From: Minisyncoccota bacterium
GTDB lineage: Bacteria > Patescibacteriota > Minisyncoccia > Phycocordibacterales > UBA9973
Length of the DNA stretch: 50,365 nucleotides
NCBI GenBank assembly: GCA_018060905.1
Contig: JAGOVD010000001.1
Span: 1 to 50,365, forward strand
Reading direction: 5' to 3'
Part shown: piece after piece, positions 4,237 to 10,876 of the stretch
How positions within the stretch are numbered: position 1 is the first letter of the stretch
Layout of the letters: each line of letters opens with the position of its first letter
Made by a program: the position numbers and the translations under genes
The notes under the pieces: generated by a model
Seen by the model: the letters and a program-made list of their open reading frames with translations, nothing else
Told to the model about the DNA's origin: nothing
Databases searched by the model: none

Positions 4237-5707
4237 TATTATCCCCGAAGAAACTATCAACGCTATGGTTCATGACAAGAAAGTGCGCATTGCAATCACG
4301 ACCCAAAGCCACCTCCACTTCTTTCACTTCTACTTCGCACACTACATCAAATATCCAACCGCAGACTTCCAACGGGAAATCATACAACTGACGGAAGATG
4401 AGACAGTGAAGAACTTTTGTGTCGTATCGTTTCGCGGATCTGCAAAATCTACAATCGTCACCACCTCATACCCAGTCTGGGCAATTCTTGGTCGTCAGCA
4501 AAAGAAATTTGTCTTGATCCTGTGTCAGACACAGATGCAGGCAAAACAGCACATGATGAACCTCCGTCGCGAACTTGAAACAAATAGTATTCTGAAAAAT
4601 GACCTCGGTCCCTTTAAAGAAGAATCAGACGAATGGGGTTCAACGTCAATCGTATTCTCAGAATCAAATGCGCGAATCACGGTTGCTTCTTCTGAGCAAA
4701 GTATCCGAGGGATTCGCCACAACCAACATCGCCCCGATCTCATCATTTGTGACGACGTGGAAGACATTGCTTCAACTAAAACGAGAGAAGGACGAAAAAA
4801 GACGTATCAATGGCTCACGTCTGAAATCATTCCCACAGGCGACCGTAACACCCGGTTAATCGTCATAGGGAACCTATTGCACGAAGACTCTCTCCTAATG
4901 CGCCTAAAGAGCGACATAGAGAATGGTCGTATCAATGGCGTATTCAAATCATACCCACTCGTCGATGCAGCAGGAAAAATTCTGTGGCCAGGGAAATACC
5001 CTACTCTTCTTGATATTGAAGAAGACAAGAAGAAAATGGGTAACGAGTATGCGTGGGAGCGTGAATATATGCTCAAGATTATCCCTACAGAAGACCAGGC
5101 TATTCACCGTGAATGGATCCAATACTATGACGACATCCCATACAACAAAAAAGATCAGGATGGATACAACGTCAATATGGGAACGTATATCGGTATTGAT
5201 CTTGCGATCTCACAGAGAGATACAGCGGACTACACCGCTATGGTGCCAGCACAGATCATCGGAAACGGTGACGAGGGAGTGTTCTATATTCTGCCAGGGA
5301 TTATTAACAAACGCATGACATTCCCAGAGACTATTGAGTTATGCAAAGTTCTTTACACGATGTATCACAAAGGTGGTCATCACCCAAAGCTCATCATCGA
5401 AGATGTTGCGTACCAACGATCGCTCCCGCAACAACTCAAACATGAGGGCGTACATAATGTACGAACCGTGCATCCTGGCAATCAGGACAAACGTAGTCGC
5501 CTAATTCTCACTGCGTATCTCATCAAATCAGGGAAGATACTATTTCCTCGCACAGGTGCAGAAGAGCTGATTAGTCAGATCGTGAACTTTGGCGTCGAAA
5601 AGCACGACGATCTCGCCGATGCATTTTCTAACTTAATACTTTGTATGGTTGAGAAGCCACCGATCATCCCAAAGATCACGTGGTTCAATACCCGCAGAAG
5701 TTATTAA
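4223..5707 (+). CDS. terL: terminase large subunit
   Basis: Walker A-like FRGSAKST, Walker B/coupling motif DLIICDDVED, and a C-terminal nuclease part with IIEDVAYQ and HDDLADAF. 494 aa. Confidence 0.9.
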   Translation: MNNHNIIPEETINAMVHDKKVRIAITTQSHLHFFHFYFAHYIKYPTADFQREIIQLTEDETVKNFCVVSFRGSAKSTIVTTSYPVWAILGRQQKKFVLILCQTQMQAKQHMMNLRRELETNSILKNDLGPFKEESDEWGSTSIVFSESNARITVASSEQSIRGIRHNQHRPDLIICDDVEDIASTKTREGRKKTYQWLTSEIIPTGDRNTRLIVIGNLLHEDSLLMRLKSDIENGRINGVFKSYPLVDAAGKILWPGKYPTLLDIEEDKKKMGNEYAWEREYMLKIIPTEDQAIHREWIQYYDDIPYNKKDQDGYNVNMGTYIGIDLAISQRDTADYTAMVPAQIIGNGDEGVFYILPGIINKRMTFPETIELCKVLYTMYHKGGHHPKLIIEDVAYQRSLPQQLKHEGVHNVRTVHPGNQDKRSRLILTAYLIKSGKILFPRTGAEELISQIVNFGVEKHDDLADAFSNLILCMVEKPPIIPKITWFNTRRSY

Positions 5708-5711
5708 GGTA

Positions 5712-6188
5712 TTACACTACCTTACAATTCCGCACGATCACTTTCCCAATAGTCGCTCCAGAAACCGTACCTTGTACGGTTATCTGTTGTCCTTTCTTGA
5801 GAGTAGCCAGCTGGGTTTCTTCAGTGGATTTAAACATACACTGTACGCTATCAAGTGAGTATGATTCAGGAGTTTCGAATGTGATGTATGCTTCATCAGT
5901 GATGTCTTTGCCGATGCTATCAATTGATCCAGAGATTTCAACAAGCTTTCCTTTGTATTGATTATCTCCGCTTACTTCGTTTGCTTTGTATGCCTGACGG
6001 AGTGTTTCAGAGTCGAGTTTTATAGCGGTAACTTCTTGTGCTGTTTGAGTATTATTAGATGATGTACTGCTTGTTGTCTTGTCATCACTTGATGCTGATA
6101 TAATCATCCCTAACAATACGAATACTCCGAGTGTTGTTAAAATCGGGTGTCGATTGATCCATGATTTCTTCGTTGGGTTTTGTTCCAT
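5712..6188 (-). CDS. membrane-anchored OB-fold protein (tRNA_anti-like family pattern)
   Basis: Preferred start is MEQNPTKKSW (ATG at 6188), followed by the TM helix ILTTLGVFVLLGMIISA and a Ser/Thr linker. Then comes L..AYKANEVSGDNQYKGKLVEISG...VQCMF...LKKGQQITVQGTV...VIVRNCKVV, the classic pattern of this OB family. Confidence 0.7.
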   Translation of the reverse strand: MEQNPTKKSWINRHPILTTLGVFVLLGMIISASSDDKTTSSTSSNNTQTAQEVTAIKLDSETLRQAYKANEVSGDNQYKGKLVEISGSIDSIGKDITDEAYITFETPESYSLDSVQCMFKSTEETQLATLKKGQQITVQGTVSGATIGKVIVRNCKVV

Positions 6189-6488
6189 AAATATAAAAAC
6201 TAGCTTATAAAGGCTAGACGGGGTATCTGTAGATGCACAGAACCCCGCGCCAGCTCGGACTTGCGTCCACATACCAGTTTCCCGATATGACCCAACGAAG
6301 AGTAAGCTGAACGCGGGGTTCAGTATCTTCGTTGGGATTTGCGACCATATCCTTTATTTCCAAAGGGGTTAGGTCGACTAATATTTAGTTGTAGCGAAAT
6401 AGTACCATTTTGACCGATACTATTCTAGGACATTGTATCGCAGTATCACTGGATCACAGAGGAAGTTACCAACAGCTTATTTTTGAAT

Positions 6489-6531: not shown

Positions 6532-7191
6532 TCACCAATTTAGCCTTTCGAGCTCTTTGGTTAACCAGTCAATTTGGGCAACAACTTCTTTCCGGCGTTG
6601 TCTAACTTCTTCGATAAGTCCTAATATTTCAGGAGCGACTGCTAGTATTGCGTCTGCGTTTGCTTCAATCTCATCATGAATAGAAACGACATTGTCTCTT
6701 TTACTAGAATACTTACGAAGTTCTTCCAGATCCTTAATTAGTTCATACTTTTGTTCCTGAATGAGCAGTGCTTTTGCTTCCTCAAACTTATCCTCAGCAA
6801 TATTCAGTAGATCAAGATAATTACATACCTCGATAAAATTTATTTTCCTTCTCTGGTCTATATTGCTGATAGACTGCATTTGCTTCAAAAGCTCAATTAT
6901 GTTGTCAGTATAGTCAATATTGATTTGCATCAACCCAGACTTTTCCCATACAAGAAATTGAATGTACTTTTTCTTTGATGCGTTTTTGAATGAGGAATAT
7001 GCATATACAGCGATGGCAACTGCGATAATAGCCGCACATATCCATAAGAACCAGTACGTGAGTTCACCGAAAGTCACCCTGTTTCCAAAATAGAAAAATA
7101 AACCAAGGACAACCAGACTTCCCAGAAGGGTATAGCCTTTCTCTTTATCAAGGCTCCTTAGAAAGAAATTCTGATAACTATAATATTTCAT
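6532..7191 (-). CDS. hypothetical 2-TM membrane protein with a C-terminal coiled coil
   Basis: Two hydrophobic helices (LLGSLVVLGLFFYF, WFLWICAAIIAVAIAVYAY) followed by about 140 aa of charged heptad-like sequence. It has its own promoter and terminator. Confidence 0.6.
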   Translation of the reverse strand: MKYYSYQNFFLRSLDKEKGYTLLGSLVVLGLFFYFGNRVTFGELTYWFLWICAAIIAVAIAVYAYSSFKNASKKKYIQFLVWEKSGLMQINIDYTDNIIELLKQMQSISNIDQRRKINFIEVCNYLDLLNIAEDKFEEAKALLIQEQKYELIKDLEELRKYSSKRDNVVSIHDEIEANADAILAVAPEILGLIEEVRQRRKEVVAQIDWLTKELERLNW

Positions 7192-7309: not shown

Positions 7310-7334
7310 TAAAAAAGGACCGTTTCCGGTCCTT
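7310..7334 (-). terminator. intrinsic terminator of 7341..8111
   Basis: GGACCG-TTTC-CGGTCC hairpin; on the minus strand it is followed by TTTTTT. Confidence 0.7.
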
Positions 7335-7340
7335 GTTGAT

Positions 7341-8111
7341 TTAGTTGTAGTTCTCCTGCAAAAAGTCCTCCCATTCTGCTGCTTGTGATTCGTATTTCTT
7401 TGCTACCTTTTCGACATCATTGTAATACTCCTCTACAAGTCGTTCGCGTGCAGTGAGTGCATACTCGATTCTTTCCTCACAGTCGGTAGATGTCGCTTCT
7501 CTCTTTTCTTTAAGGAGGGTGATCAATTCTTCCGTGCTTTGCAGGTGACTGTCGCTATACTGCTTATAGCGCTCTCTGATTTCTTCTTTTGTGTCATTGT
7601 CTTTCGTCTTTCGCAATGCCTCCTGTGCTGCGTTCCAGGCTTTTTCCAAAAGAGTTTTCATCTGAGAACGGATAGTTTCTTCTTCAACGTCGATATCTGC
7701 GAGTTGTGTTCCAAAATCATCGTTTATTTTTTTGAACACCGTCTCAGACGTCCCCACAATATCCTGTTTGTAGACTGCAACCTGGTCTCTAAAAAATTGA
7801 GCCATGCTTTTATTGCTTTTTATCATGTCTTTCACATATGCAATCTGCATCTTTTTGCTATTTCTGGCTATGAGCCTTGAAATAGGATGTGATAGCACAA
7901 GCGTAAACGCAATAATCGCAAACAGTATGACTACCCATGGGTGATTGATGGGGTTGAATACAAAAATAAACAGAAGGATACACACTAACCCCGTCAAAGA
8001 AAGAATGATGTACATTTTTCCATGAAGGAGTGAAGCAGTATTTTTACGTACTTTTTTAATGCTAATTTCGTTTTGCATGTTTATGTAGTTTTTGTGAATG
8101 AACAGATTCAT
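7341..8111 (-). CDS. hypothetical 2-TM membrane protein with a C-terminal coiled coil
   Basis: TM helices MYIILSLTGLVCILLFIFVF and WVVILFAIIAFTLVL, then about 170 aa of charged helical sequence. Same architecture as 6532..7191. Alternative start is MQNEIS at 8078. Confidence 0.6.
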   Translation of the reverse strand: MNLFIHKNYINMQNEISIKKVRKNTASLLHGKMYIILSLTGLVCILLFIFVFNPINHPWVVILFAIIAFTLVLSHPISRLIARNSKKMQIAYVKDMIKSNKSMAQFFRDQVAVYKQDIVGTSETVFKKINDDFGTQLADIDVEEETIRSQMKTLLEKAWNAAQEALRKTKDNDTKEEIRERYKQYSDSHLQSTEELITLLKEKREATSTDCEERIEYALTARERLVEEYYNDVEKVAKKYESQAAEWEDFLQENYN

Positions 8112-8190
8112 TTAGAGACCACGAAATATTCATGAGCTCTAAAATGTGGACGATTTTACTAGTAGGTATCGTCCATTTGACCTTTGGGAA

Positions 8191-8385
8191 TCAATTTCTT
8201 TTTTTCGCTTCCAGCACATGCTTCCCGGCATTGTGTGAAGTGTTGCGTGCTTGTACCTGAGCAATTGCGCCTCGTATCATCTGACTCCGCATTTGTTCTT
8301 GCTCGGACATGAACGCTTCACGTTCGTTTTCTGGAAGGGCGTCGTACGCCCTCTGCATAATGGGTGACAAGTCCCGTCGTGTCAT
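8191..8385 (-). CDS. small hypothetical protein (64 aa)
   Basis: Its start overlaps the stop of 8382..9176 by 4 nt (ATGA), suggesting translational coupling. No recognisable motif. Confidence 0.45.
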   Translation of the reverse strand: MTRRDLSPIMQRAYDALPENEREAFMSEQEQMRSQMIRGAIAQVQARNTSHNAGKHVLEAKKRN

Positions 8386-9176
8386 GGAGTAAACATTTTG
8401 GTTAAGAAATGAAACATCTGTTTGTCATACTGCTCGATGATTTCAGTTTTGTATACCTCATCATCGGTCATCATATAAAGAAACATCAATATCTTCGCAT
8501 CTTTGCGCTTTTGGGAAGCCTCCTTTGCATAGTGAATTGATTTTTCGTACTGTCCGATAAGACAATACATACTTGCTAAATTTTCTTTAACAAGAATCAT
8601 TTCAGGATATACAGAGAACGCTTCTTCCAAAATCGTTTGGTATGTTCTGACATTTGAAGTCCTATATGACAACGCCTGACTTACCAGGTATGAGCAATAT
8701 AACCCCTTCCATAAATCAAGCTTGCCTACTGAAGGGTGAGAGAGTTGGGTTGGCACAGCGCTTAGCTCTGCAAAAATCGGATCGAATTGTCTTCCTTGCT
8801 CATCTACAATCACAATATGAGGACTCTCATATTGTAGTAGTTCAGCAATGTAGGTTTCGTCGTTCCATTTTTCTGCACATGCTTGTTCTAATATCATTGA
8901 CCGCAGTAAATCTTCGCAAACCTCTCCTGCATACATCGTGTGTGTAGGAAAAAATTGTTCACATAATACTGCGGCTTTGAGTGCTCTACCAAAACAACCT
9001 GCATCATCAAAACCAATGTTCATTTCTGCAACTTTCTCTTCGGAGAATGCTACACCATTGGGAATATTCCATGATAGAGAATAAAGAAACGATATCGGAT
9101 CTTTGTACCCTGACTCAGTTCCTTTTACTCGGAATGTATCCATGGCTTTCGCCTTGAATTGATCGAAAGATATCAT
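8382..9176 (-). CDS. hypothetical protein; possible transglutaminase-like Cys-His-Asp peptidase core plus C-terminal TPR-like helices
   Basis: DAGCFGRALKAAVL (Cys), about 58 aa later SPHIVIVDEQGRQFDPIF (His...Asp). This mimics the G-C...H-x-W/V...D-P spacing of transglutaminase-like proteases. The C-terminus ENLASMYCLIGQYEKSIHYAKEA looks TPR-like. Confidence 0.4.
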   Translation of the reverse strand: MISFDQFKAKAMDTFRVKGTESGYKDPISFLYSLSWNIPNGVAFSEEKVAEMNIGFDDAGCFGRALKAAVLCEQFFPTHTMYAGEVCEDLLRSMILEQACAEKWNDETYIAELLQYESPHIVIVDEQGRQFDPIFAELSAVPTQLSHPSVGKLDLWKGLYCSYLVSQALSYRTSNVRTYQTILEEAFSVYPEMILVKENLASMYCLIGQYEKSIHYAKEASQKRKDAKILMFLYMMTDDEVYKTEIIEQYDKQMFHFLTKMFTP

Positions 9177-9214
9177 AGTTTATAATGTTTAAGGAACGTA
9201 ATTTATTGGAATAT

Positions 9215-9260
9215 ATTGTAGCACAAATGTCTTGACAAGTCAAGGTATTTCTGCTATACT
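9215..9260. promoter_or_regulatory. divergent promoter pair with abutting -35 boxes forming the palindrome CTTGACAAGTCAAG
   Basis: Plus strand: TTGACA (9232-9237), 17 nt, TATACT (9255-9260). Minus strand: TTGACT (9238-9243), 17 nt, TGcTACAAT (9215-9223). Confidence 0.6.
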
Positions 9261-9357: not shown

Positions 9358-9843
9358 ATGACAAACAATACTTCAAATCCAGTGACCGTAAATGGAGCTG
9401 GTGCCGATTCACAGAATCAGGTTAATACAGTTGAATTAGTTTTAACGTTCAATTTGATGGGTAGTGGATTCTTTGGGGACCAATACAGAGAAAGGCGAAT
9501 ATGGAAGTCAGGTGGTTCACACCTGCTTGCATTAAGTCCTATTTGTACCCCAGATGAGTTCAGTGACTCGAACTGTGATTGCAGGAGCTATTACTGTAAC
9601 GAGGTCCCAAAACAACTTAGTGGTGAGAAAAGTTTTGATAATGGAGGACGTACGTGTCTCTATCAATTCTGGGATGCATTTGTAAGAGCAACTAAACATT
9701 TTGACGACATTGTTCCCGAAATGTTTAGTACAGGCAATTACGGATGCAGGAGTATTTGGTTTGTAATGAGAACCAGTCGTGACCTTGAGTACATTAAGTC
9801 TGTTTTGAGAGAAGTGTTTGAACGTGAGATTAAGTTTAATTGA
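9358..9843 (+). CDS. hypothetical Cys-rich protein (161 aa)
   Basis: ORF downstream of a canonical promoter and followed by a hairpin. No recognisable domain. Confidence 0.5.
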   Translation: MTNNTSNPVTVNGAGADSQNQVNTVELVLTFNLMGSGFFGDQYRERRIWKSGGSHLLALSPICTPDEFSDSNCDCRSYYCNEVPKQLSGEKSFDNGGRTCLYQFWDAFVRATKHFDDIVPEMFSTGNYGCRSIWFVMRTSRDLEYIKSVLREVFEREIKFN

Positions 9844-9848
9844 ATTTT

Positions 9849-9879
9849 GGGCGAGCCTTAAAACTCGCCCTCATTATTC
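9849..9879 (+). terminator. hairpin GGGCGAG/CTCGCCC after 9358..9843
   Basis: 7-bp perfect stem, 8-nt loop, followed by a moderately T-rich tract. Confidence 0.4.
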
Positions 9880-9943
9880 AACCCATAAAGCAATTTGTGG
9901 TTTGATTGTGAAATACATTTGTTCATTCAAAAATCTAAATATA

Positions 9944-10876
9944 ATGAGTAAGCAAGAAATTCTGGATACCATAACTATCCTTTGCAGTAGCGAAAACGTT
10001 GCCGCTTCAATGAAACAAGCACTTCTCGAAAGTGATGTTGATATTGAGCCGATCAGTAATACAACAATCATTGCTGTAGAAAACACAATTGGTGGAGCGA
10101 AGATGCAGTCTTGTAAAGGAATTGTTATGGCACACAACATGCTTATCAATGACCAAAACTGCAAAATCATCCTGTACCACGTACTTCCAGTTGAGTACCT
10201 TCGCAAGAACCATCAAAAACTGGATATTGTACTGGCAAAGCCAAACGTACGATTGCTGGAAATGCCATTTTCGCTTGAAACACTTGCAACAGCATTTCAA
10301 ACAAAGAGCATAGATATTGACTCAAGTTCTACACAAGATGCCTTAAACAAGCACATTGCAGGAGAATTAAGCGGTATCTGGCATGACATTAAAAAGGCAC
10401 CGAATCCATTACAGCCACGAAATGACTGGGAAACGGATTGCGTAACAAATGGTATTGCAAAAGCAAAAGGAGCATTCCCAATGCTAGCCGATAAAGATGA
10501 TGCTTTCATTCTTCAATTCCTTGAAGAAACCTCCGCAAAACGCGAAGAGGTACGCAAAGGAGAAACCTTTTCAGGTATTTTCTGTGACATGGAAGGCACG
10601 CTTTTCAGCAATGGTACATTGAACAATGCGGTACTGGAATTTCTACGGAAGCACGAAGCCGAAGGGAAAGAAATCAGACTTTGGTCTGATGGAAACCTTT
10701 CAGAGCTTCAACCATTACTTGATGCTAATAACATCGCATATCAACTCAATGCAAAACGCGATTTTGCAGGAGCAATTGTCGAAATGGCGATTGATGATAT
10801 GGATGAGCATAGCTTTTCAGCAATTACGAAAGTATTTGCCAAAGAGTTCAAACAGGTAGGAAGCATCCTTGCTTAG
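9944..10876 (+). CDS. hypothetical protein with a C-terminal HAD-like phosphatase module
   Basis: Preferred start is MSKQEILD (ATG at 9944, after the upstream hairpin). GIFCDMEGTLF resembles HAD motif I (DxDGTL with the second Asp replaced by Glu). LWSDG and AIDDMDE follow later. The N-terminal ~200 aa are unassigned. Confidence 0.5.
   Translation: MSKQEILDTITILCSSENVAASMKQALLESDVDIEPISNTTIIAVENTIGGAKMQSCKGIVMAHNMLINDQNCKIILYHVLPVEYLRKNHQKLDIVLAKPNVRLLEMPFSLETLATAFQTKSIDIDSSSTQDALNKHIAGELSGIWHDIKKAPNPLQPRNDWETDCVTNGIAKAKGAFPMLADKDDAFILQFLEETSAKREEVRKGETFSGIFCDMEGTLFSNGTLNNAVLEFLRKHEAEGKEIRLWSDGNLSELQPLLDANNIAYQLNAKRDFAGAIVEMAIDDMDEHSFSAITKVFAKEFKQVGSILA

What the first reader, a model, noticed from the sequence alone, without database searches (positions are those of the whole stretch)
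7341..9176. Operon of a putative transglutaminase-like protease-TPR protein, a 64-aa protein and a 2-TM coiled-coil membrane protein
Three co-directional genes follow one promoter (cassette C). In the first, GCFG...(58 aa)...PHIVIV...FDP mimics a papain/transglutaminase-type Cys-His-Asp triad, followed by TPR-like helices. It is translationally coupled (ATGA overlap) to a 64-aa ORF. An 8-bp hairpin (8147-8175) then precedes a protein with two TM helices and a long coiled coil. A repeat-domain protease next to a membrane-active protein recalls protease-activated pore or abortive-infection logic, as in bacterial gasdermin systems. None of the proteins resembles those families by eye.
Basis: inference. 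Interest (0 to 1): 0.62.

Follow-up and report, generated by a model that had tools for sequence, protein, structure and literature searches.

The report
Enzyme–partner gene pair with RNA punctuation
An uncultured ultra-small (CPR) bacterium carries a rare mobile two-gene unit, a predicted Cys-His-Asp enzyme with a TPR tail plus a 64-residue partner, that ends in a conserved double-hairpin RNA "punctuation mark", and the membrane gene behind that mark is a separate, swappable cassette, not the enzyme's pore-forming effector.

Summary
The three minus-strand genes, the ATGA overlap, the promoter, the hairpin and the terminator are all present.

- **Candidate triad:** Cys61, His120 and Asp132 are invariant in 33 close homologues. 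They are complete in 66 of 88 family representatives. Where lost, Cys61, Asp89 and His120 go together.
- **Fold:** AlphaFold (pLDDT 96) puts the Cys at a helix N-terminus and the His and Asp on a β-hairpin, ahead of a real TPR domain. No Pfam, PDB or profile match places the N-domain in a known family. Foldseek gives only weak transglutaminase-fold hits.
- **Conserved unit:** this is the enzyme plus the 64-aa partner, which carries an invariant R-N-x-S-H-x-x-G motif. The partner follows the enzyme gene in 19 of 19 distinct loci.
- **Membrane gene:** the coiled-coil membrane gene occurs only in near-identical relatives.
- **The hairpin:** it is stem 1 of a ~105-nt structured RNA, and 18 of its 20 base pairs covary. 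This RNA follows the pair. It also precedes the enzyme gene and a HAD-like gene in other loci. Type III hammerhead ribozymes take the place of its second hairpin in two junctions.

The gasdermin-like reading is not supported. The pair's biochemical role is unknown.

The parts
9215..9243 (-). Sigma-70-type promoter of the pair (TTGACT, 17 nt, TACAAT with TG extension). Its -35 box is back-to-back with the -35 box of the divergent plus-strand promoter.
   Evidence: sequence read
8382..9176 (-). 264-aa cytoplasmic protein. The N-terminal alpha/beta domain (about residues 1-155) carries conserved Cys61, Asp89, His120 and Asp132, plus Glu85, Glu117, His147 and Trp156. The C-terminal part is a TPR domain (about 160-262).
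   Evidence: conservation and model; TPR
8191..8385 (-). 64-aa partner protein, translationally coupled by an ATGA overlap. Arg47, Ser50, His51 and Gly54 are invariant and Asn48 nearly so (motif aRNxSHNxGKH). It has no family match.
8087..8192 (-). Structured RNA junction (model R1).
   Evidence: no Rfam match
7341..8078 (-). Next cassette: a 245-aa protein with two transmembrane helices and a coiled-coil tail. The ORF can be read from ATG 8111, but that codon lies inside P2. It is present only in near-identical relatives.
7315..7334 (-). Intrinsic terminator (8-bp GC-rich stem plus T-run) that ends the unit.
9831..9933 (+). Second copy of the R1 junction (58 bits). It starts at the stop codon of the 161-aa gene and ends 10 nt before the ATG of the HAD-like gene. 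Its P1 is 9849-9870.
9944..10876 (+). 310-aa protein with a receiver-like N-terminal domain lacking the acceptor Asp and a minimal HAD-like C-terminal domain (CDxEGT, W[ST]DG, K, IDDxDE). It is the most frequent neighbour of the pair, seen in 7 of about 16 loci in varying position and orientation.

Best explanation
The region holds two cassettes of a CPR-type "RNA-punctuated" accessory island, not one three-gene system.

**Cassette 1** is a fixed pair.
- The first gene encodes a cytoplasmic enzyme-like protein. Its novel alpha/beta domain has a papain/transglutaminase-like arrangement: Cys61 at a helix N-terminus, then His120 and Asp132 on a beta-hairpin. A TPR peptide-binding domain is fused to it.
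- The second gene encodes a translationally coupled 64-aa helical partner. Its invariant R-N-x-S-H-x-x-G loop is most likely what the enzyme binds. I infer that the TPR domain holds the partner and presents this loop to the Cys-His site. The partner would then be either a substrate (cleaved, deamidated or cross-linked) or an active-site-blocking regulator.

**The junction.** The pair ends in a ~105-nt double-hairpin RNA (P1, U-run, P2, GUUCUUU box). This junction most likely separates and stabilises the upstream and downstream messages. Type III hammerhead ribozymes occupy the place of P2 in two junctions of related loci.

**Cassette 2** is the gene behind the junction. It is swappable, and here it is the 2-TM coiled-coil gene.

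The whole unit is rare, patchy and sits among recombinases, so it is an accessory, probably conflict-related, module.

**Shown:** the conservation of the pair, the residue pattern, the TPR, the RNA structure and its copies, the hammerhead substitution, and the lack of linkage to the membrane gene.

**Inferred:** catalysis, enzyme-partner contact, RNA processing and a conflict role.
For: **The pair**
- The partner follows the enzyme gene in 19 of 19 distinct triad-bearing loci with downstream DNA. This includes members of about 21-29% identity.
- The motif occurs exactly once per locus.

**The triad**
- It is invariant in 33 homologues.
- It is complete in 66 of 88 representatives.
- Cys61, Asp89 and His120 are lost together, while Glu85, Glu117, Asp132, His147 and Trp156 stay.
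- The one triad-less member whose locus could be read has no partner gene.

**Model and fold**
- The full-length model has pLDDT 96, with Cys61 at the start of helix 61-75 and His120 at the start of strand 121-125.
- The TPR is confirmed.
- Nine of 43 weak Foldseek hits are transglutaminase-fold enzymes: vasohibin, PeiW and arylamine N-acetyltransferase.

**RNA element**
- Nucleotide identity is 77-88% against 45-78% in most coding windows.
- 95% of cells are paired against 74% in shuffles and 55% or less in slid controls. 18 of 20 pairs change on both sides.
- Copies lie after the partner gene, before the enzyme gene (L001, L003, L005, L006, L010) and before the HAD-like gene.
- Hammerhead_3 takes the place of P2 in L005 (48.8 bits) and L001 (36.6 bits).
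- Both the pair and the R1 element are found in only 1 of 401 Patescibacteria genomes.

**Context**
- Neighbours include a serine recombinase, integrases, a transposase and AbiEii or RelB/YafQ genes.
Against: - No sequence or profile method links the N-domain to any peptidase or transglutaminase family.
- Foldseek has no hit with E below 1 in PDB or BFVD.
- I could not measure 3-D distances between the triad residues.
- No complex model of enzyme and partner could be made, so their contact is inferred from linkage only.
- The link between triad loss and partner loss rests on one locus.
- The structure counts were made on an alignment fitted to the model.
- RNA processing at the junction is not demonstrated. 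The RNA-labelled runs gave only short low-depth contigs.
Confidence: 0.6

Rival explanations
1. First reader's model. The three genes form one system in which the Cys protease, on a trigger, cleaves or activates the 2-TM coiled-coil protein to damage the membrane, as in gasdermin-like or abortive-infection systems.
For: - The three genes lie between one promoter and one strong terminator.
- In locus L031 the block of HAD-like gene, pair and membrane gene sits in different flanks, as if moved together.
- In about 6 of 8 independent lineages the co-directional downstream gene encodes a membrane or secreted protein.
Against: - The membrane protein has no homologue next to the pair outside relatives of 86% DNA identity or more.
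- It has no phage hit and only coiled-coil-type noise against ZorA in PADLOC.
- The downstream proteins are mostly unrelated to one another. The 151- and 164-aa proteins of L010 and L012 look alike by eye.
- The gene is separated from the pair by a terminator-like stem and a junction that also precedes unrelated genes.
- RNA-labelled runs gave contigs over the partner gene but none over the membrane gene.
Confidence: 0.1
2. Toxin-antitoxin-like addiction module. The enzyme is a toxin that modifies an essential cell protein. The 64-aa protein is its cognate inhibitor, made by translational coupling.
For: - The two-gene linkage is strict and the genes overlap.
- The distribution is rare and patchy.
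- Two divergent copies occur in one MAG (L008 and L009).
- The module sits in islands beside other TA or Abi genes and recombinases.
- The partner is absent where the triad is dead.
Against: - The gene order (large gene first) and sizes are atypical for type II systems.
- No DNA-binding fold was detected in the partner.
- There is no PADLOC or Pfam toxin hit.
- Toxicity is untested.
Confidence: 0.2
3. The 264-aa protein is a non-catalytic TPR scaffold (a pseudo-enzyme like E. coli SirB1/YchA), and the conserved residues are structural.
For: - It has the same size and two-domain layout as SirB1, which is 269 aa, is annotated transglutaminase-like plus TPR, and lacks the Cys and His.
- About a quarter of family representatives lack the triad.
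Against: - The triad is kept in 75% of representatives across deep divergence, and Cys61, Asp89 and His120 decay together. This is the pattern of a working active site.
- No homology to SirB1 is detectable.
- PF13369 is absent from this genome.
Confidence: 0.1

Closest known systems
Vasohibin-SVBP (transglutaminase-like Cys protease with a 66-aa helical partner; PDB 6j4u, 6j7b, 6och, 7zcw)
   Same: Both have a Cys-His catalytic pair on a transglutaminase-type core that works with a dedicated helical partner of about 65 residues. Vasohibins are among the best, though weak, Foldseek hits.
   Different: Vasohibin is eukaryotic and has no TPR. There is no sequence similarity, Foldseek probability is 0.04 or less, and SVBP has no RNxSH motif. 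The resemblance is an analogy.
SirB1/YchA family (Pfam Transglut_core2 PF13369 + TPR_9 PF13371)
   Same: Both are about 265-aa cytoplasmic proteins with an N-terminal alpha/beta domain followed by TPR.
   Different: The E. coli protein has Ser and Thr where this family has Cys and His. Profile comparisons find nothing. SirB1 has no coupled small partner; its neighbours in E. coli are prmC, ychQ and kdsA.
Hammerhead-punctuated gene cassettes of prophages and CPR islands (Rfam RF00008), and the 'HP1-HP2-GUUCUUU' double-hairpin junctions noted elsewhere in this scan
   Same: A double hairpin starts at the stop codon. A GUUCUUU box lies 10-30 nt before the next start codon. Hammerhead ribozymes sit in place of the second hairpin in relatives. 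TrmB-type regulators and receiver-like proteins are nearby.
   Different: This sequence family of the junction (model R1) was found only in loci that also carry the enzyme-partner pair: the fetched loci of the pair and the one genome of 401 that has it. Processing is not demonstrated.
Bacterial gasdermin plus protease systems
   Same: Both have a predicted protease gene upstream of a membrane-associated protein gene.
   Different: There is no gasdermin-like protein, no conserved linkage and no defence-model match.

Membership tests
Transglutaminase-like core (Pfam PF01841, papain-like clan) | Significant match to the family profile | tested here: not met
   No Pfam hit for the window protein or any of 88 relatives. 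hhalign of the family's N-domain profile against 27 CPR Transglut_core domains gave 0.3% probability.
Transglutaminase-like core (Pfam PF01841, papain-like clan) | Cys at the N-terminus of a helix, then His and Asp on successive strands of an antiparallel sheet, all conserved | tested here: met
   Cys61 starts helix 61-75. His120 starts strand 121-125. Asp132 follows the hairpin. Conservation is 76%, 86% and 98% (Asp or Glu) in 88 representatives, with correlated loss. 3-D distances were not measurable.
Transglutaminase-like core (Pfam PF01841, papain-like clan) | Fold similarity to solved members | tested here: inconclusive
   The N-domain model has pLDDT 87. Foldseek against PDB gave no hit with E below 1. 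Vasohibin (4 hits), PeiW (3) and arylamine N-acetyltransferase (2) are among 43 weak hits, with TM-score 0.37 or less.
SirB1/YchA (PF13369 + PF13371) | Profile match to Transglut_core2 and TPR_9 | tested here: not met
   There is no PF13369 hit. TPR_9 matches weakly in 4 of 88 members. hhalign against E. coli YchA and against a 15-sequence SirB1 profile found nothing.
TPR repeat proteins | Helix-turn-helix repeats matching TPR profiles and structures | tested here: met
   Residues about 165-245 match consensus TPR proteins and OGT, with E down to 1e-38 for the family profile. Foldseek probability is 1.0.
Gasdermin-type protease-pore defence system | Conserved linkage of the protease gene to a pore-forming effector gene | tested here: not met
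   No homologue of the membrane protein was found in any locus outside near-identical relatives. PADLOC gave only weak ZorA coiled-coil hits.
Type II toxin-antitoxin module | Toxic protein neutralised by a co-transcribed cognate partner | not testable with these tools
   Only linkage, overlap and patchy distribution are shown.
RNA-punctuated (double-hairpin or hammerhead) cassette junctions of CPR bacteria | Conserved covarying double hairpin right after a stop codon, with a GUUCUUU box before the next start | tested here: met
   (95% of cells paired; 18 of 20 pairs with changes on both sides).
RNA-punctuated (double-hairpin or hammerhead) cassette junctions of CPR bacteria | A hammerhead ribozyme in the same position in related loci | tested here: met
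   Hammerhead_3 in L005 at 4736-4791 (48.8 bits, above gathering) and in L001 at 5925-5979 (36.6 bits, E 1e-6). Both run straight into UGUUCUUUAC and the next gene.

The most novel reading that the evidence does not exclude
The pair is a previously unknown protein-modification system. A Cys-His-Asp enzyme of a new fold variant, guided by its TPR domain, covalently processes the invariant Asn-x-Ser-His loop of its dedicated 64-aa partner by cleavage, deamidation or cross-linking. In the same reading, the double-hairpin junction that travels with the pair is a self-processing RNA functionally interchangeable with hammerhead ribozymes.
Probability: 0.12. Interest if true: 0.85.

Novelty: new variant of a known kind. 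Interest (0 to 1): 0.55.

Why it matters
CPR (Patescibacteria) genomes are tiny, and most of their accessory genes have no known function.

This region gives a cleanly delimited and very confidently folded enzyme-like family. It has an obligate small partner and a clear, testable active-site hypothesis (Cys61 and His120). No database currently annotates it.

It also adds an independent case to an emerging pattern in CPR islands. Genes come as cassettes separated by structured RNA junctions or hammerhead ribozymes. Here one sequence family of the junction co-travels with one cargo. That offers a natural system for asking what bacterial hammerheads and their hairpin substitutes do.

Finally, it corrects a tempting defence-system reading.

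Tried and rejected
**Family and defence libraries**
- Pfam, PHROGs and PADLOC scans of all three proteins gave nothing meaningful.

**Searches against solved and predicted structures**
- PDB sequence and profile searches returned only TPR hits.
- Foldseek of the full model was swamped by TPR. I therefore folded residues 1-170 alone. That gave no significant PDB or viral hit.

**Homology to SirB1 and Transglut_core**
- I fetched E. coli ychA and its relatives for profile comparison, with no result. The relatives found were all enterobacterial, so that profile was narrow.
- hhalign against 27 CPR Transglut_core domains also found nothing.

**Searches for the region and the family elsewhere**
- Phage DNA and protein searches gave no match.
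- Viral contigs hold no relative.
- A broad family-profile scan of 401 Patescibacteria genomes returned only TPR-only proteins apart from the window's own genome.

**The partner and the RNA**
- The partner's motif resembles a histidine-kinase H-box and an N-x-S sequon by eye. No profile or PDB support was found, and a literature string search found nothing.
- An integron attC reading of the RNA was considered because some copies have GCCTAAC in a loop. I dropped it: there is no complementary core site, the element has two hairpins, and its G-U pairs are specific to the sense strand.
- A weak third R1 hit on contig 13 lies between secA and an ordinary gene and looks like chance.
Full report
**What is there**

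All genes of the finding are on the minus strand.
- A 264-aa gene lies at 9176..8382.
- A 64-aa gene lies at 8385..8191. Its ATG overlaps the first gene's TGA as ATGA.
- An ORF at 8111..7341 has two hydrophobic segments and a long charged helical tail.
- A good promoter (TTGACT-17-TACAAT with TG) lies at 9243-9215. A strong terminator lies at 7334-7315. No canonical terminator separates the second and third genes.

The window is contig 1 of a 516-kb, 84%-complete Patescibacteria (CPR) genome from wastewater. The genes sit in an AT-rich island. The island also holds an orphan terminase, a ParB-methylase, an Sie-like OB-fold gene and a serine recombinase.

**The 264-aa protein**

It matches nothing in Pfam, PHROGs, PADLOC or PDB by sequence, except TPR in residues ~165-245.

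It has 33 close homologues, mostly from Parcubacteria/Paceibacteria-type MAGs. An exhaustive profile search finds about 105 clusters at E ≤ 1e-10.

Residue conservation:
- Cys61, His120 and Asp132 are invariant in the close set.
- In 88 full-length representatives they are kept in 76%, 86% and 98% (Asp or Glu).
- 66 of the 88 have the whole triad.
- In the other 22, Cys61, Asp89 and His120 tend to be lost together. Glu85, Glu117, Asp132, His147 and Trp156 persist.

This is the pattern expected when a catalytic site decays as a unit on a retained scaffold.

AlphaFold2 gives a very confident model (pLDDT 96, pTM 0.92). Cys61 is at the N-terminus of helix 61-75. His120 is at the start of strand 121-125. 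Asp132 follows the hairpin. Seven helices then form the TPR. This is the order and placement of a papain/transglutaminase-type triad.

Membership of a known family could not be shown.
- Foldseek of the full model sees only TPR.
- The N-domain folded alone (pLDDT 87) has no PDB or BFVD hit with E below 1.
- Nine of the 43 weak PDB hits are transglutaminase-fold enzymes: vasohibin-SVBP, PeiW and arylamine N-acetyltransferases.
- Profile-profile comparison finds nothing against E. coli SirB1/YchA, which has the same size and two-domain layout but lacks the Cys and His.
- It also finds nothing against 27 CPR Transglut_core domains.

So this is a new family with a papain/transglutaminase-like active-site layout. 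It is not a demonstrable member of those families.

**The partner**

A 61-67-aa ORF follows the enzyme gene immediately, usually overlapping it. This holds in every one of 19 distinct triad-bearing loci that have downstream DNA. It includes members as distant as about 21-29% identity, and one locus whose neighbours look non-CPR.

Its alignment has invariant Arg47, Ser50, His51 and Gly54, and nearly invariant Asn48 (aRNxSHNxGKH). The motif occurs exactly once per locus. It matches no Pfam family or solved structure.

The single triad-less family member whose locus I could read has no partner gene. This is suggestive, but it is one case.

**The membrane gene is not part of the conserved unit**

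tblastn finds the 2-TM coiled-coil protein only in the window and in relatives of about 86-90% DNA identity. It has no phage homologue. Its only defence-model hits are weak coiled-coil matches to ZorA.

In other lineages the gene after the pair is different:
- a 96-aa 2-TM protein;
- a 151-164-aa polytopic protein;
- a 242-aa single-TM protein;
- a trypsin-like lipoprotein;
- an ABC substrate-binding protein;
- a soluble 190-aa protein;
- or a convergent gene.

Roughly 6 of 8 independent lineages have a membrane or secreted protein there.

In L031, the block of HAD-like gene, pair and membrane gene is conserved while both flanks differ. In this lineage the block therefore moved or was retained as a piece.

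**The hairpin belongs to a conserved structured RNA**

A sliding identity profile shows that the ~110 nt after the partner's stop codon are 77-88% identical between loci. In most coding windows the same comparisons give 45-78%.

Read 5' to 3', the element has these parts:
- a mini-stem UUCC/GGAA;
- the linker ACAUUUU;
- a 14-bp stem P2 at 8111-8143;
- the box AAAUGAAAUUGUUCUUUMAC.

P1 covaries: GGACGA/UCGUCC, GGGCGA/UCGCCC, GAACGA/UCGUUC, GAACAA/UUGUUC and GGGGAC/GUCCCC.

A covariance model (R1) finds copies in three positions:
- after the partner gene in at least 13 loci;
- directly upstream of the enzyme gene, 1-35 nt before its ATG, in L001, L003, L005, L006 and L010;
- upstream of the HAD-like gene in the window (9831-9933, ATG at 9944) and its relatives.

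On the 20-copy alignment, 95% of cells pair, against 74% in shuffles and 55% or less when partners are slid. 18 of 20 pairs change on both sides. That alignment is fitted to the model, so the counts lean towards the structure.

Recurrent G-U pairs on the sense strand argue for RNA rather than a DNA operator. Rfam has no match.

In two junctions a type III hammerhead replaces P2 and runs straight into the same UGUUCUUUAC box:
- L005 before the HAD-like gene, at 48.8 bits, above the gathering score;
- L001 before the enzyme gene, at 36.6 bits, E 1e-6.

In L011, L015 and L021, where no co-directional gene follows closely, P2 is replaced by an ordinary terminator.

I therefore read the element as an intercistronic junction. 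It has a 3' stem for the upstream message, a processing or 5'-protecting stem for the downstream message, and a leader box.

Both the protein family and R1 are found in only 1 of 401 sampled Patescibacteria genomes, the window's own.

Notes from other agents of this scan describe the same HP1-HP2-GUUCUUU and hammerhead "punctuation" in other CPR islands, often beside TrmB regulators and receiver-like proteins. I reached the element independently before reading them. They are leads, not evidence.

Here too, TrmB-like genes lie near the pair in at least six loci. A receiver-like plus HAD-like protein lies near it in 7 of about 16 loci.

**Weak expression evidence**

Four RNA-labelled wastewater runs each give short contigs covering 8171-8600. 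That region is the partner gene plus the 3' end of the enzyme gene, and the contigs end at P1. None covers the membrane gene.

Depths are low and DNA carry-over is possible. The same segment is also where two paralogous copies in one MAG break their contigs. It may simply be the most widely shared piece.

**Verdict**

- The enzyme-plus-TPR reading and the coupling to the 64-aa ORF are supported.
- The protease-activates-pore reading is not supported.

The best description is a rare, mobile enzyme-partner cassette of CPR bacteria with its own RNA punctuation. The membrane gene is the next, swappable cassette. What the enzyme does to or with its partner remains to be tested.

Noticed in passing
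window 6256-6375 (-): A LOOT RNA (Rfam RF03000, 82.7 bits against a gathering score of 46.4) lies in the leader of the tRNA_anti-like / Sie-like OB-fold membrane gene (6272..5712). It covers the palindromes another reader flagged at 6240-6336.
   Followed up: no
L005 4736-4791; L001 5925-5979: Unannotated type III hammerhead ribozymes lie in the sense strand just before the HAD-like gene (L005) and the enzyme gene (L001). Each is fused to the UGUUCUUUAC leader box.
   Followed up: partly
window 9818-10876 (+): The 352-aa TTG ORF is an artefact. The R1 copy at 9831-9933 occupies its first part, and the real gene is 9944-10876 (310 aa). The protein has a receiver-like domain without the acceptor Asp and a minimal HAD-like domain with Asp-x-Glu in motif I. 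8 of 10 homologues weakly hit Hydrolase_6.
   Followed up: partly
L008 and L009 (two contigs of one MAG): Two paralogous copies of the enzyme gene (98% and 82% identical to the window's) both end their contigs at residue 208 (window ~8552). This suggests that the 3' part of the gene plus the partner gene is near-identical between the copies, as a repeat or by gene conversion.
   Followed up: no
L005 ~4333-4614; L010 5652-6107; L012 7065-7559: A small polytopic membrane protein family (N-terminus MKKI..ICL.GGLL.SALYAYLTV, judged by eye) recurs inside the punctuated array in three loci that also have the HAD-like gene. The L005 copy is not called as a gene.
   Followed up: no
family representatives P0125, P0131, P0142, P0144: One sub-branch has His in place of the catalytic Cys while keeping His120, Asp132 and His147. 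This could be a switch to a metal site.
   Followed up: no
L001 7152-7724; L015 4110-4685: Two ~190-aa proteins near the pair share SxKRLLFR[IL]L by eye. The L001 protein carries AAHEVRHRFQH, an HExxH-like metalloprotease motif.
   Followed up: no
window 9159-9260: Divergent promoters share a palindrome (CTTGACAAGTCAAG) so that the two -35 boxes abut. The 5' UTR of the enzyme gene keeps only a GUUCCUUAAAC remnant of the junction's leader box.
   Followed up: partly
window 6532-7191 (-): A second gene for a membrane protein with a coiled-coil tail has its own promoter (7261-7233) and terminator (6518-6494). My hydropathy scan merges its hydrophobic stretch into one segment. It has no detectable similarity to the first such gene (BLASTP E above 0.01).
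   Followed up: partly
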